Assembly: GCA_035480235.1 (NCBI GenBank)
Contig: DATIHX010000003.1
Coordinates: forward strand, 21,514 to 85,513
Length of the DNA stretch: 64,000 bases
From: Candidatus Saccharimonadales bacterium
Lineage (GTDB): Bacteria; Patescibacteriota; UBA1384; 2-12-FULL-50-11
Direction of reading: 5' to 3'
This document shows, piece after piece, positions 38,090-40,704 of the stretch. The first letter of the stretch is position 1, and the number at the start of each line of letters is the position of its first letter. The notes below the pieces were generated by a model, which was not told where the DNA came from, did not search any database, and saw only the letters and a list, made by a program, of their open reading frames with translations. The position numbers and the translations under genes were made by a program.

Positions 38090-40704
38090 TAGCTACCTTT
38101 CATCCCGTAGAGCTCGAGGAGCTGCTTCGGATCGGTGGTGATGATCTGGTCCTCGGTGTACGAGGCGACAATCTGGATGGCGGCCCGGTTATTAGCAACC
38201 AGGAATAGCCCTTGGCCGACTTCCGCTTCGGTTAGGAAGAACTTCTCACCATCGGTCAGCTTAAAGGTGTCGGCGATTTTGTCGATGGCCGTCGTACTCT
38301 GACCGAGCAAGAGCTGGGTGATCGAGTTATTAACCACGCTGCGGCCGTAACTGGAGCCCAAAAAGTCTTCAACGTCTTGGCTAATCACCGTCACACCGAG
38401 GTAGTATTTCCGGGCTCGTTTGACCATCGCGTTCAAGAACTTGGCCGAGTCTTCGAAGCGCATCATCAACCAACCTTCGTCGATGATCAGCAAGCGCTTT
38501 TTCAGTTGCGATTTCACCCGAGCCCAAATGTAGTTGAGGGCCAAATACATCGCCACCGGCCGGAGCTCGTCTTCCATGTCGCGGATCGAGAAAACAGTGA
38601 ATTTGTTGGTTAAATCGATGTTGGTTTGGCTGTTGAAGAGGCTGGCAAACGACCCTTCGGAGTATTTAGTTAATCGAGCCACCAAGCTCTCGGTCCGGTT
38701 CATATTTTGTAATACGGTCACCAAATCGCTTAAAACCGGCGGTTGGTTGGTGTGGGTGGCGATGTCGGTGGTGATGTCTTTGAGGGCATAGGCTTCGTAG
38801 AGCGCTTTATCGAGCAAGTTATCTTCCTCGGCCGAGAGGCCGCCGGCCATCAAACTGAGTAAGCCGTGAACGGAAGTCACGGTCGTCCGTAAAATCTGGT
38901 CGCCGGTCTCTTGGTTTTGCTCGTTATAACGCGGCAGATCGAACGGGTTAATCTTTTGGTCGGAGTTGAGCGACAAGTTGATGTACGTCCCGCCGACCGC
39001 TTCGCTCAGGTTTTTATATTCCGATTCTGGGTCGATGGCGATAATCTCGGTGCCCATCATCAAGCTTCGAACCGCCTCCAGTTTCACAGCGTAGGATTTG
39101 CCGGCGCCGGATTTGGCGAAGACCACTTGGTTGGCGTTCTCCATTTTGAAACGGTCGAACAAGACCAGCGAACTGTTATGGAGGTTGATGCCGTACAAAA
39201 CGCCGTCGTGGTGCGACAGCTCGGCCGAGGTGAAGGGAAAAGTCGTCGAGAGCGAGGCGGTGTCCAGGTTGCGGACGACGTTTAGTTGGTCATCAAGCAA
39301 AGGTAGCGTTGTGTTGAAGCCCTGCTCCATTTGCAGTAGGGCCTGCTTGGTGTAAATCAGCGAACCGCCCAAAATCGCCTCAAACTGCTTGGAGAGTTTG
39401 TTCAGCTCCTCGATCGAGGTGGCGTAGAGCGTGAAATAGAGGCCGAATTGGAAGAGCCGGGTCTCGCCTTTTTGGAGGGTGTCGCGCAGTTCCTCGATGT
39501 CGCCGACGGCGGTTTCTAGCTCCGGATTGCGAACCAAGCCTTTCTCGGCTTCGATTTCCAGCGACGACTGAAGCTGGGTGGTTTTGCGGCGGAGCTGGCC
39601 GACCAGTACGTTGGTCTCGATCGGGTAAATAATAAACGAAACATCGATTGTCGCATCGTAGTTAATAATCGGCGACAGCCAGTTGGCGTTGAGGTAGCGC
39701 GGGTAGGTGTAAACGAACAGCGTTCGGACGTAAAAATTACCGAGTTGCAGGTAGCTGGGGGTGATGTTGAGGCCGCCGGGGGCGATGATATCTAGCACGT
39801 TGGCCAGGCCTTGCTGCAGGACTTTGTCGGTCGAGTGAATCTCGCTTTGCTTCAGGCCAAGTTTGTCGAAAATTTCGCCGACCGTCGTTTGTTTCAGCGG
39901 TGTCGGCGCTTCGGTCGTTTCGGCGGCGGTAATTTGGGATTTGGGATTTGGGATTTGGGATTTCTGCTCGATTCCGGCCGATTCGAGCAGCTGTTGGCCT
40001 TTTTCAATAATCGGCGCTGTTACCTGGCTGGGGTCGCTCAGATGTTCGGTCACGCCTTCCTCGGGATTGTAGGTGTTGTAGAGGAGCTCGATGATTTCTT
40101 TAGTGCCGAGTTCGCTAGTGGTAATACCTAGCGCATTCAAGCGGCCAGCCACCGTTCGGAGCCGATCCTGTAAGACCTCGCGGTATTCGGCAAACTCTTT
40201 ATCAGTCATGGCGCTTAACCCGGTTTTTTTGCGCTGCAAGATCTTATCCACCAGGGTTTGTTGCTCGGCTGCCCCTTTGACCACGTGGCCGATCACCAGG
40301 TAGAACGATTTGTCCATGATATTCACCTGGTCGGCCAGGGTTTTAATGAAATCCAGGTAGTCTTGTGACTGTTTTTGCAGTAGCTCGTTCACTTCGTTGG
40401 CGGTAGCGGCCTTAACTTTGTCGATGTAGCCGCTCAAATCAACCCGCCGGCTTTGGACGACGATCTGAACGGGGAATTTCAACGAATTCAAAAAGCTTTG
40501 GTACTGGTAGATGGCCACTTCCTGCTCTTTTTCGCTTTTCAGGTCGAAGTTGACCGGCGTCGCTCGCAACGCCATCCGCAACCGGCCGTCTTTGAGGATA
40601 ATCACGCCTTCGCGGATCCGGTCGACCGAGAGGTATTTTTGGGTAGCGGCGGGCTTGGGCGAATTACTTTTGGCCATCGGTTCCCTTCGGTTGGTCCAGC
40701 ACAT
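38089..40704 (-). CDS. virB4: VirB4/TrbE/PrgJ-family type IV secretion ATPase
   Basis: 871 aa. Walker A FAKSGAGKSYAVK and Walker B RLLIIDEGW. An ATG at 40677 is an alternative start. Confidence 0.85.
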   Translation of the reverse strand: MCWTNRREPMAKSNSPKPAATQKYLSVDRIREGVIILKDGRLRMALRATPVNFDLKSEKEQEVAIYQYQSFLNSLKFPVQIVVQSRRVDLSGYIDKVKAATANEVNELLQKQSQDYLDFIKTLADQVNIMDKSFYLVIGHVVKGAAEQQTLVDKILQRKKTGLSAMTDKEFAEYREVLQDRLRTVAGRLNALGITTSELGTKEIIELLYNTYNPEEGVTEHLSDPSQVTAPIIEKGQQLLESAGIEQKSQIPNPKSQITAAETTEAPTPLKQTTVGEIFDKLGLKQSEIHSTDKVLQQGLANVLDIIAPGGLNITPSYLQLGNFYVRTLFVYTYPRYLNANWLSPIINYDATIDVSFIIYPIETNVLVGQLRRKTTQLQSSLEIEAEKGLVRNPELETAVGDIEELRDTLQKGETRLFQFGLYFTLYATSIEELNKLSKQFEAILGGSLIYTKQALLQMEQGFNTTLPLLDDQLNVVRNLDTASLSTTFPFTSAELSHHDGVLYGINLHNSSLVLFDRFKMENANQVVFAKSGAGKSYAVKLEAVRSLMMGTEIIAIDPESEYKNLSEAVGGTYINLSLNSDQKINPFDLPRYNEQNQETGDQILRTTVTSVHGLLSLMAGGLSAEEDNLLDKALYEAYALKDITTDIATHTNQPPVLSDLVTVLQNMNRTESLVARLTKYSEGSFASLFNSQTNIDLTNKFTVFSIRDMEDELRPVAMYLALNYIWARVKSQLKKRLLIIDEGWLMMRFEDSAKFLNAMVKRARKYYLGVTVISQDVEDFLGSSYGRSVVNNSITQLLLGQSTTAIDKIADTFKLTDGEKFFLTEAEVGQGLFLVANNRAAIQIVASYTEDQIITTDPKQLLELYGMKGS
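39932..39963. repeat. Tandem heptamer (ATTTGGG x4.5) inside virB4, in frame (encodes KSQIPNPKSQI)
   Basis: The + strand reads ATTTGGG ATTTGGG ATTTGGG ATTTGGG ATTTC. It resembles the arm sequences of the intergenic element at 25496..25520. Confidence 0.8.

What the first reader, a model, noticed from the sequence alone, without database searches (positions are those of the whole stretch)
39932..39963. Fragment of the same repeat family inserted in frame in the VirB4 ATPase
The + strand carries 4.5 tandem ATTTGGG heptamers, preceded by GGTAATTTGGG (compare GGTAATTGGGATTTG at 25501..25515). In the minus-strand gene this reads KSQIPNPKSQI. It sits in a hydrophilic linker (…SAGIEQKSQIPNPKSQITAAETTEAP…) between the N-terminal and ATPase parts. 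A 7-nt period keeps the reading frame only in blocks of three units, so copy-number changes could switch the gene on and off in the manner of phase variation. If only in-frame lengths are tolerated, the tract would simply be a linker.
Basis: seen in the sequence. Interest (0 to 1): 0.55.

Follow-up and report, generated by a model that had tools for sequence, protein, structure and literature searches.

The report
In-frame heptamer repeat in VirB4 linker
A perfect 7-base repeat is translated as 11 amino acids of a floppy, fast-evolving linker in the secretion ATPase of an ultrasmall (CPR) bacterium; it is most likely a tolerated by-product of a repeat-making habit of these genomes, not a proven on/off switch.

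Summary
The tract is real. Window 39932..39963 is (ATTTGGG)x4.6 with no mismatch, the longest perfect simple repeat in the window. It lies in frame in the minus-strand VirB4-type ATPase gene and reads KSQIPNPKSQI.

It sits in a hypervariable, probably disordered junction between a TrsD-like N-domain and the ATPase part. In 70 of 81 related CPR loci the gene is cut into two genes at this same point.

The closest relative has a tract of the same length but decayed. Other relatives have unrelated linkers.

The same unit is also in frame at two sites of the valine-tRNA ligase gene (valS), normally a single essential gene. It also forms one arm of two intergenic hairpins.

Period-7 and period-14 arrays are by far the commonest tandem repeats in 1 Mb of related CPR DNA.

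Best reading: slippage-made repeat DNA that is tolerated as linker because the unit has no stop codon in any frame and encodes a hydrophilic peptide.

Phase variation is mechanically possible, since a change of one or two units truncates the protein before the ATPase. I found no length variant and no frameshifted allele. The repeat number is low, and the system is essential in a cultivated relative. Read-level data are needed.

The parts
39932..39963 (-). Perfect heptanucleotide array. The sense strand is (AAATCCC)x4.6, translated as KSQIPNPKSQI. The plus strand is (ATTTGGG)x4.6.
38089..40677 (-). VirB4-type type IV secretion (T4SS) ATPase gene, 862 aa from the ATG at 40677. An upstream in-frame ATG at 40704 would give 871 aa. 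The 862-aa product is identical to NCBI HSX41783.1.
   Evidence: Walker A (KSGAGKS) and Walker B (LLIIDEGW) are invariant in orthologues.
40003..40677 (-). TrsD-like N-terminal domain, about residues 1-225. This part is a separate gene in most related CPR loci.
   Evidence: NCBIfam TrsD hit at aa 25-165, E 3.4e-6 (27 bits, far below the curated cut-off of 200); PMC12102498.
39889..39972 (-). Hypervariable core of the inter-domain linker. It contains the tract.
   Evidence: 13% identity and 17-43 aa among 36 orthologues. The model shows coil with pLDDT about 28-36.
38089..39822 (-). VirB4/TrsE-like ATPase part. It corresponds to the second gene of the split relatives.
47498..47525 (-). Same heptamer unit in frame in valS (valine-tRNA ligase), reading NSKSQIPNPKQ. 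It lies in a variable linker ahead of the anticodon-binding domain.
48039..48073 (-). A 14-nt-period array containing AAATCCC. It forms a 13-aa in-frame insertion (TKSQKSNPKNNEG) in valS that is absent from two orthologues.
25415..25555 (.). Intergenic imperfect hairpin of about 140 nt downstream of yidC. Its arms have a heptamer period. The right arm carries CGGATTTGGGTAATTGGGATTTG, and the core is AATGTTTTAAACATT.
   Evidence: (z -5.0)
30215..30360 (.). Second hairpin element of the same family, between recF and a small ORF. Arms are (AAACTCT)x4.6 and (ATTTAGG)x2.6, and the core is AATGTTTAAAACATT.

Best explanation
The tract is a coding microsatellite that serves as filler in an unconstrained inter-domain linker.

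**Proposed origin (inferred).** These CPR genomes have a strong tendency to generate tandem arrays of period 7 and 14, about 25-38 nt long, probably by slipped-strand mispairing or short templated duplication. Most of these arrays lie between genes, often as inverted pairs that form hairpins.

**Why this one survives in a gene.** An array is kept inside a gene only where three conditions hold:
- the protein tolerates any sequence at that point;
- the total added length keeps the reading frame;
- the unit has no stop codon and encodes a harmless peptide.

AAATCCC meets the third condition. It is open in all six frames, and its sense strand gives K-S-Q-I-P-N-P.

**Why this site.** The tract sits at the junction between the TrsD-like N-domain and the VirB4 ATPase. 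Most relatives encode these two parts as separate genes, so the junction is structurally free.

**History (inferred).** The array was already present in the common ancestor with the closest known relative. In this lineage it has been kept perfect by repeat turnover or conversion, or else it was remade recently.

**Consequence.** The tract could in principle frameshift the gene, but its normal role is simply linker.
For: **Shown: the site is free of constraint.**
- Linker-core identity is 13%, against 68% and 83% for the flanking domains. Core length varies from 17 to 43 aa.
- The structure model gives coil with pLDDT about 28-36 at residues 243-284.
- Seventy of 81 related loci encode the N-domain and the ATPase as two ORFs cut at this junction. 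All 11 loci whose ATPase part is at least 70% identical are fused.
- Separate TrsD genes next to virB4 are reported as the rule in Patescibacteria (PMC12102498).

**Shown: these genomes make 7n-period arrays.**
- In 1.03 Mb of related CPR DNA, arrays scoring at least 40 number 56 for period 7 (0.7 in shuffles) and 45 for period 14 (6.7 in shuffles).
- The same count gives 4, 6 and 15 for periods 6, 8 and 9. Thirty-eight of 86 loci carry at least one such array.
- About 80% of these arrays lie at gene boundaries or between genes.
- Spacers between split VirB4 halves often hold such arrays. The L211 spacer even contains ATTTGGGATTTGG and AAATCCC.

**Shown: permissive sites collect them repeatedly.**
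- L003 has its own perfect 14-nt x2.2 array in the same VirB4 linker, and another in the same valS linker.
- The window has the AAATCCC unit in frame at two valS sites. One of them is a 13-aa insertion absent from orthologues.
- A relative's PrgI carries (AAATCCG)x4.7, and a relative's amidase carries (AAATCCC)x4.

**Shown: the unit is tolerable.** It has no stop codon in any of six frames.

**Shown: age.**
- L001 (92% amino-acid identity) has the same tract length with 7 of 33 bases changed.
- Third codon positions between the two genes are only 53% identical.
- A perfect 32-nt array therefore cannot be a passive relic. This last step is inference.
Against: - No read-level or strain-level data could be examined, so instability of the tract is neither shown nor excluded.
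- A perfect array surviving across near-saturated synonymous divergence implies ongoing unit gain and loss. That is the same process that would cause phase variation.
- The mechanism that favours period 7 is unknown.
- Whether the array arose in place or was copied from another locus cannot be told.
- The structure model is of modest overall quality (mean pLDDT 59.7), so 'disordered' rests mainly on sequence variability.
Confidence: 0.72

Rival explanations
1. Contingency locus. Slippage by one or two units switches the T4SS ATPase off and on again, giving phase variation of the host-contact machinery.
For: - The unit length is not a multiple of 3, the array is perfect, and it lies inside an ORF.
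- Loss or gain of 1 or 2 units gives stops at residues 259-316, before the ATPase part, with no obvious restart codon.
- At 4.6 units it passes the PhasomeIt screening cut-off of 3 units for 6-9-nt repeats (PMC5953494).
- Intragenic heptanucleotide repeats associated with frameshifts are known in Haemophilus influenzae (PMC2651432).
- The perfection of the array despite saturated neutral divergence implies repeat turnover.
Against: - No frameshifted or length-variant allele was found among 11 fused loci and about 66 full-length orthologues.
- The identical protein is seen on two contigs.
- The closest relative has the same length but a decayed, non-slippery tract.
- The H. influenzae heptamer tracts described in PMC2651432 have 6-38 units, against 4.6 here.
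- The tract is mid-gene, and the window contains no other candidate repeat switches.
- The same unit sits in valS, where I assume switching would be lethal.
- T4SS genes are essential for epibiotic growth in the one CPR organism tested (PMC12102498).
Confidence: 0.1
2. Captured piece of a mobile or copied intergenic hairpin element. By analogy with Rickettsia palindromic elements, one arm of the 25.4 kb / 30.2 kb element family was inserted into the gene or converted into it.
For: - The unit is shared with the right arm of the 25415..25555 hairpin, and the nearby string GGTAATT(T)GGGATTTG is shared too.
- The valS tract at 47498..47534 shares both ends (TTCGGATTTGGG ... TTTCCCG) with that arm.
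- All copies have the same orientation on the plus strand.
- In L211 a hairpin made of the same units sits exactly at the VirB4 junction.
Against: - The VirB4 tract has no partner arm, no core palindrome, and no fold better than shuffles (z 0.29 and -0.85).
- The core palindrome occurs only twice in the window and in none of the 126 loci held at that point, which included the close relatives but not the 80 CPR loci fetched later.
- L001 already has the tract at the same length, so any capture was old.
- Similarity between low-complexity sequences is weak evidence of descent.
Confidence: 0.13
3. Programmed slippage signal. CCCAAAT lies in the zero frame as C_CCA_AAU, a -1 frameshift heptamer. 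A fraction of ribosomes would then make a free TrsD-like N-domain, restoring the two-protein arrangement of relatives. Alternatively, the G-rich template strand (four GGG runs) forms a G-quadruplex that modulates transcription.
For: - One of the four units is aligned as X_XXY_YYZ in the reading frame (read directly).
- Both shifted frames stop soon after the tract.
- Relatives make the two parts separately.
- GGGATTTGGGATTTGGGATTTGGG fits the G3N1-7 quadruplex pattern.
Against: - The motif is not conserved in L001 or in any other fused orthologue.
- No downstream stimulatory structure is predicted.
- The window has 3 quadruplex-type motifs against 2.1 expected from shuffles, so there is no enrichment.
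- Both features follow automatically from repeating this unit.
Confidence: 0.03
4. Assembly or sequencing artefact.
For: Tandem repeats can be mis-assembled in metagenome-assembled genomes.
Against: - The tract is only 32 nt, shorter than a read.
- The ORF stays open.
- The identical protein is on two contigs.
- A decayed copy at the same place in an independent assembly confirms the locus.
Confidence: 0.02

Closest known systems
Simple-sequence-repeat contingency loci (for example heptanucleotide tracts in Haemophilus influenzae hmw1A and an HI1369 homologue)
   Same: A perfect non-triplet tandem repeat inside an ORF. Gain or loss of a unit would frameshift the gene (PMC2651432; PMC5953494).
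   Different: - Only 4.6 units here, against 6-38 in the H. influenzae tracts.
- Mid-gene position in a hypervariable linker.
- No variant or OFF alleles seen.
- The same unit occurs in the housekeeping gene valS.
- The organism shows no other candidate switch repeats in 64 kb.
Cyanobacterial STRR (short tandemly repeated repetitive) sequences
   Same: Arrays of 7-bp units that are specific to each genome, recur between genes, and can form hairpins. Their function is unknown; transcript stability or translational coupling has been suggested (PMC2670836). The unit CCCAAAT resembles STRR1, CCCCA(A/G)T (from my own memory, not checked).
   Different: - STRRs are described in filamentous cyanobacteria and in intergenic DNA.
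- Here the organisms are Patescibacteria, and this copy is translated.
- I found no paper describing such arrays in CPR.
Tandem repeats in Borg elements that create disordered protein regions (aaTRs)
   Same: Fast-evolving nucleotide tandem repeats, specific to each genome, that add intrinsically disordered segments to existing proteins (PMC9879509).
   Different: In Borgs every repeat unit inside an ORF has a length divisible by three. Here the unit is 7 nt, so all three frames are read in turn, and only the total length keeps the frame.
Rickettsia palindromic elements inserted in frame in protein genes (from my own memory, Ogata et al. 2000; not read here)
   Same: An intergenic-type repeat family whose copies are also found translated, in frame, in permissive parts of conserved proteins.
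   Different: Those elements are palindromes of about 100-150 bp inserted whole. The VirB4 tract is a single 32-nt array with no palindrome.
TrsD + TrsE/VirB4 two-gene arrangement of monoderm-type T4SS (pGO1; Patescibacteria)
   Same: The N-terminal part of the window's protein matches TrsD and the rest matches VirB4. The tract marks their boundary (PMC12102498).
   Different: Here the two parts form one polypeptide joined by a linker of about 45-75 aa. The cited survey discusses VirB3-VirB4 fusions but not TrsD-VirB4 fusions.

Membership tests
VirB4 / TraC-type T4SS ATPase | Match to curated family models above their cut-offs | tested here: met
   NCBIfam NF045971 (VirB4-like, CD1110 family) scores 355.6 bits against a cut-off of 325. 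Pfam P-loop_TraG scores 94.5 against 25.8.
VirB4 / TraC-type T4SS ATPase | Walker A and Walker B nucleotide-binding motifs | tested here: met
   KSGAGKS and LLIIDEGW are present. G533, G535, K536, S537, D742 and E743 are invariant in 36 orthologues.
VirB4 / TraC-type T4SS ATPase | Encoded within a T4SS gene cluster | tested here: met
   A PrgI/VirB3-like gene lies upstream in the window. The orthologous gene in relatives matches TrsL_3-type VirB6 models (TrbL_3). A C39-like peptidase and an amidase lie downstream in the window. Gene order is conserved in relatives.
TrsD-like N-terminal module | Similarity of the N-terminal ~200 aa to TrsD, and a separate gene in relatives | tested here: met
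   NCBIfam NF041427 TrsD matches aa 25-165 at E 3.4e-6. The 27-bit score is far below the curated cut-off of 200, so this is a weak match. Seventy related loci encode this part as a separate ORF.
Phase-variable contingency locus driven by a simple repeat | Perfect tandem repeat, unit not divisible by 3, inside an ORF or promoter | tested here: met
Phase-variable contingency locus driven by a simple repeat | Repeat number varies between reads, strains or close relatives | not testable with these tools
   No reads are available. The only indirect data are an identical protein on 2 contigs and the same tract length in L001.
Phase-variable contingency locus driven by a simple repeat | Frameshifted OFF alleles found among homologues | tested here: not met
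   All 11 fused loci are intact. The apparent 578-aa and 582-aa versions are start-site annotation artefacts, because the full ORFs are open.
Phase-variable contingency locus driven by a simple repeat | Repeat number in the range shown experimentally to be hypermutable | tested here: inconclusive
   The tract has 4.6 units. That is above the screening cut-off of 3 but below the 6-38 units of the H. influenzae heptamer tracts described in PMC2651432.
STRR-like heptamer arrays | Tandem 7-bp units recurring at several places in one genome | tested here: met
   Five loci in the window carry ATTT(G/A)GG-type units. Period 7 dominates in 1 Mb of related DNA.
STRR-like heptamer arrays | Intergenic position and hairpin formation with an inverted array | tested here: not met
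   The VirB4 tract is coding and has no partner arm (fold z 0.29 and -0.85). The feature is met by the elements at 25415..25555 and 30215..30360, and by the spacers in L211, L213 and L245.
Borg-type amino-acid tandem repeats | Repeat unit length divisible by three | tested here: not met
   The unit is 7 nt (criterion from PMC9879509).
Borg-type amino-acid tandem repeats | Creates or extends a disordered region | tested here: met
   Coil with pLDDT about 28-36 in a model of modest quality. Linker identity is 13%.
In-frame palindromic element insertion (Rickettsia type) | A whole palindromic element present inside the ORF | tested here: not met
   There is no inverted partner and no core palindrome near 39932..39963.

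The most novel reading that the evidence does not exclude
Patescibacteria carry an undescribed, lineage-wide system of heptamer-period arrays, analogous to cyanobacterial STRRs. In this reading the arrays act as raw material for gene architecture in three ways.
- They form hairpin spacers between coupled genes.
- They can supply stop and start signals. For example, the (CGTAATG)n arrays in L233 and L236 contain the TAA stop and ATG codons, one of which could serve as the start of the second gene.
- Where a stop is lost, they are read through as new disordered linkers, which helps fusion or fission of TrsD and VirB4.

The VirB4 tract would then be a live, still-turning-over example that occasionally frameshifts the T4SS ATPase.
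Probability: 0.25. Interest if true: 0.65.

Novelty: new member of a known kind. Interest (0 to 1): 0.38.

Why it matters
- **The T4SS is central to CPR biology.** It is one of the few systems shown to be essential for the host-attached life of a Patescibacteria bacterium (PMC12102498). Any device that could switch or remodel its ATPase deserves a look.
- **The switch idea lacks support.** I found no evidence for it here.
- **The tract marks a structural boundary.** It lies where TrsD and VirB4 are joined in one clade and separate in most others.
- **These genomes favour one unusual repeat class.** They are rich in 7-nt-period arrays that end up both as intergenic hairpins and as translated linker.
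- **If confirmed genome-wide.** This would be a concrete example of how repeat-generating mutation bias supplies new disordered segments and gene junctions in very small genomes.

Tried and rejected
1. **Exact look-up of the window's protein in the contig index.** Both start choices gave nothing. The cluster look-up did find it as HSX41783.1 on two contigs, but no DNA could be fetched, so strain comparison was not possible.
2. **Short homologues as possible frameshift products.** The 578-aa and 582-aa homologues (P0067, P0071) looked like frameshift-split alleles of close relatives. Their loci show intact 868-aa and 906-aa ORFs, so the short forms are annotation artefacts.
3. **Is ATTTGGG itself a special, universal unit?**
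   - (ATTTGGG)x3 occurs in more than 120 contigs of many phyla, mostly inside long open frames as KSQIPNP.
   - In viral contigs it gives 9 hits. Four control heptamers of the same composition, also open in all six frames, give 11-25 hits.
   - The unit is therefore not special.
4. **Literature.** No paper holds the peptide KSQIPNP. The sequence-string search returned only noise.
5. **Known RNA families.** Rfam finds only tRNAs in the window.
6. **G-quadruplex enrichment.** There is none: 3 motifs against 2.1 expected.
7. **The hairpin core palindrome in other loci.** It has no match in the 126 loci held at that point.
8. **A characteristic array length of about 33 nt.** This is probably a product of the score threshold and small numbers, so I did not pursue it.
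Full report
**1.

- Window 39932..39963 is ATTTGGG repeated 4.6 times without a mismatch, preceded by GGTAATTTGGG. Tandem Repeats Finder gives period 7, 100% matches, score 64.
- It is the longest perfect simple repeat in the 64 kb. The window has no homopolymer of 8 or more, and all three perfect heptamer repeats belong to the ATTT(A/G)GG type.
- The 14-mer ATTTGGGATTTGGG, allowing up to two mismatches, occurs 9 times against 0.71 expected. No shuffle reached 9.
- On the minus strand the tract is AAATCCC repeated. 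It is read as ...SAGIEQKSQIPNPKSQITAAETTEAP... in ORF 38089..40704.
- Homologues start at the second ATG (40677). That 862-aa product is identical to NCBI protein HSX41783.1, recorded on two contigs.

**2. The gene and the organism**

- The protein is a VirB4-type ATPase. NCBIfam NF045971 scores above its cut-off, Pfam P-loop_TraG and AAA_10 match, and the Walker motifs are invariant.
- It lies in a monoderm-type T4SS cluster:
  - a PrgI/VirB3-like gene upstream;
  - a gene whose orthologue in relatives matches TrbL_3 (VirB6-type) upstream;
  - a C39-like peptidase, a 1471-aa protein and an amidase downstream.
- The cluster lies next to the replication origin. The local gene order is yidC, rnpA, dnaA, dnaN, recF, as reported for Patescibacteria T4SSs (PMC12102498).
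- The best homologues come from Patescibacteria metagenomes. The named ones are mostly Berkelbacteria, while NCBI labels the identical protein Candidatus Saccharimonadales.

**3. Where the tract sits**

- In an alignment of 36 orthologues, identity to the query is 68% in the N-domain and 83% in the ATPase part. It is 13% in the 21 residues around the tract.
- That core varies from 17 to 43 residues in length.
- An AlphaFold model built on this alignment is of modest quality (mean pLDDT 59.7). It shows residues 243-284 as coil with pLDDT about 28-36, between a folded N-domain and the ATPase.
- I compared the N part and the C part separately with 86 CPR loci; both parts were found in 81 of them.
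  - All 11 loci whose ATPase part is at least 70% identical have one ORF.
  - All 70 loci at 46-55% identity have two ORFs. The first is an N-domain protein of about 210-230 aa. After a genuine stop codon, an ATPase ORF of about 600-636 aa follows.
  - The cut falls exactly at this junction.
- The N part matches TrsD. A 2025 survey reports TrsD, a remote homologue of the VirB4 N-terminus, as a separate gene next to virB4 across Patescibacteria, and essential in Southlakia (PMC12102498).
- So the tract lies in the seam of a TrsD-VirB4 fusion. The protein can be physically cut there without loss of the system.

**4. History of the tract**

| Locus | Amino-acid identity | Linker at the tract position |
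|---|---|---|
| L001 (closest relative) | 92% | Same length, decayed: AAATCCC AAACCGC CAAACCC AACTCCC AAACC, 7 changes in 33 nt |
| L002 | 91% | Unrelated sequence, different length |
| L003 | 90% | Unrelated sequence, with its own perfect 14-nt x2.2 array at the same place |

- The window and L001 genes are only 80% identical in DNA. Third codon positions are 53% identical, so neutral sites are close to saturation.
- A 32-nt array cannot stay perfect over that distance by chance. Either it is kept uniform by continued gain and loss of units or by conversion, or it was remade recently. This step is inference.

**5. The tract is not alone**

- The same unit, in the same orientation, is translated at two places in valS (NCBIfam valS equivalogs).
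  - Positions 47498..47525 read NSKSQIPNPKQ, in a variable linker.
  - Positions 48039..48073 form a 14-nt-period array that makes a 13-aa insertion absent from two orthologues.
- L003 has a 14-nt array in that same valS linker.
- Relatives carry (AAATCCG)x4.7 in PrgI (KSEIRNPKSE) and (AAATCCC)x4 in the amidase.
- Two intergenic elements, 25415..25555 and 30215..30360, are long imperfect hairpins (z -5.0 and -3.4).
  - Their arms have a heptamer period.
  - They share the core AATGTTT(T/A)AAACATT.
  - The right arm of the first carries CGGATTTGGGTAATTGGGATTTG.

**6. A trait of the lineage**

In 1.03 Mb of CPR DNA chosen only for containing a VirB4 homologue, tandem-repeat arrays scoring at least 40 are distributed as follows:

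| Period | Real arrays | Block shuffles (mean) |
|---|---|---|
| 6 | 4 | 0 |
| 7 | 56 | 0.7 |
| 8 | 6 | 0.7 |
| 9 | 15 | 2.3 |
| 12 | 32 | 4.3 |
| 14 | 45 | 6.7 |

- Thirty-eight of 86 loci have at least one array of period 7 or 14.
- Units differ between genomes but recur within a genome in both orientations.
- About 80% of the arrays are at gene boundaries or between genes.
- Several spacers between split VirB4 halves are made of such arrays and fold into long hairpins: L211 z -5.6, L213 z -3.9, L245 z -3.9. The L211 spacer even contains AAATCCC and ATTTGGGATTTGG.
- In L233 and L236 the array (CGTAA[C/T]G)n contains the TAA stop of the first gene and ATG codons just ahead of the second.
- The only described analogue I found is the cyanobacterial STRR: 7-bp repeats that form hairpins between genes, with unknown function (PMC2670836).
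- A search for such arrays in CPR literature found nothing.

**7. The unit itself is not special**

- (ATTTGGG)x3 occurs in more than 120 contigs from many phyla, often in long open frames as KSQIPNP.
- In viral contigs it gives 9 hits. Four control heptamers of the same composition, also open in all six frames, give 11-25 hits.
- What matters is that AAATCCC has no stop codon in any frame and encodes a hydrophilic, proline-containing peptide.

**8. Mechanism**

Best supported (confidence 0.72):
- A mutational process that makes 7n-period arrays seeds them across these genomes.
- Selection removes them from coding DNA except at unconstrained sites, where an in-frame total length and a harmless peptide let them persist as linker.
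- The VirB4 junction and the valS linker are such sites, and they have been hit independently in different lineages.

Shown: position, variability, split/fused pattern, recurrence, period spectrum, open frames. Inferred: slippage as the generating process, and turnover as the reason for perfection.

**9. Phase variation**

For:
- A change of one or two units would truncate the protein at residues 259-316, leaving a TrsD-like fragment and no ATPase.
- The tract passes a common screening threshold of 3 units for 6-9-nt repeats (PMC5953494).

Against:
- No variant or frameshifted allele was found in any relative.
- The identical product is on two contigs.
- The tract has only 4.6 units, against 6-38 in the Haemophilus heptamer tracts (PMC2651432).
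- There are no other candidate switch repeats in the window.
- The same unit is in valS, which I assume is essential.
- The T4SS is essential in the one tested relative.

I put this at about 0.1. Only read-level data can settle it.

**10. Other readings**

| Reading | Confidence | Main reason |
|---|---|---|
| Capture of a hairpin-element arm | 0.13 | Cannot be separated from growth in place; could be part of the main story |
| Ribosomal frameshift signal (C_CCA_AAU is in frame) or G-quadruplex on the template strand | 0.03 | Both follow from the unit itself and are not conserved |
| Assembly artefact | 0.02 | An independent relative has the decayed tract at the same place |

**11. Verdict**

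- The feature is real.
- The repeat-family link is plausible.
- The switch idea is unsupported.
- By itself the tract is a new example of a known kind of thing: a coding microsatellite in a disordered linker.
- The more interesting by-products are the heptamer-array habit of these CPR genomes and the TrsD-VirB4 seam.

Noticed in passing
window 47498..47525 and 48039..48073 (valS, minus strand): The same AAATCCC unit is translated in frame at two sites of valine-tRNA ligase. One site is a 13-aa insertion (TKSQKSNPKNNEG) between Cys-containing motifs, absent from the L002 and L003 orthologues.
   Followed up: partly
window 25415..25555 and 30215..30360: Two intergenic hairpin elements of about 140 nt. 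Their arms have a heptamer period and they share the core palindrome AATGTTT(T/A)AAACATT. One lies downstream of yidC and the other between recF and a 94-aa ORF. The core was not found in the 126 loci held at that point.
   Followed up: partly
86 CPR loci (window, L001-L003, L124, L126, L200-L279): Tandem arrays of period 7 and 14 are the dominant short repeats (56 and 45 arrays at score 40 or more, against 0.7 and 6.7 in shuffles). Units are genome-specific, the arrays are mostly at gene boundaries, and they often occur as inverted pairs that form hairpins. I found no description of this for Patescibacteria.
   Followed up: partly
L206-L279 versus window, L001-L003, L124, L126, L200-L203, L205: VirB4 is one gene in the window's clade. 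In all 70 more distant CPR loci it is two genes (TrsD-like N-domain plus ATPase), cut at the same junction.
   Followed up: yes
L233:10651-10684 and L236:2166-2195: The array (CGTAA[C/T]G)n between the two VirB4 halves contains the TAA stop of the first gene and ATG codons just ahead of the second (TAATG motif). This suggests the repeat provides translational coupling.
   Followed up: no
L003:10758-10788 and L003:2437-2467: A relative has perfect or near-perfect 14-nt x2.2 arrays with unrelated sequence at the same VirB4 linker and the same valS linker where the window has heptamer arrays. These are independent hits at the same permissive sites.
   Followed up: partly
L124:8881-8913: The PrgI/VirB3-like gene of a Berkelbacteria genome carries a perfect (AAATCCG)x4.7 array in frame (KSEIRNPKSE). 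Two further heptamer arrays lie in the PrgI-VirB4 spacer (9004-9036 and 9087-9119).
   Followed up: no
L004-L123 (genome-contig hits): (ATTTGGG)x3 or longer occurs in more than 120 contigs of many phyla, often inside long open frames as KSQIPNP repeats (for example L031 in a 2666-aa frame and L013 with 13 units). Controls in viral contigs suggest this is generic to stop-free heptamers, but it was not controlled in genomes.
   Followed up: partly
window 39936..39959 (plus strand): GGGATTTGGGATTTGGGATTTGGG fits the canonical G-quadruplex pattern on the template strand of the gene. Such motifs are not enriched in the window (3 against 2.1 expected).
   Followed up: yes
window 26325..26403: Upstream of dnaA there is an AT-rich region with 8/16-nt repeats and inverted repeats. 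It includes TGTGGATAA, a DnaA-box-like sequence, so this is probably oriC.
   Followed up: no
L124:10001-11737 and L126:6001-7749: Public annotations call VirB4 as 578 aa and 582 aa, although ORFs of 868 and 906 aa are open from upstream starts. The N-domain and linker are left unannotated in those records.
   Followed up: yes
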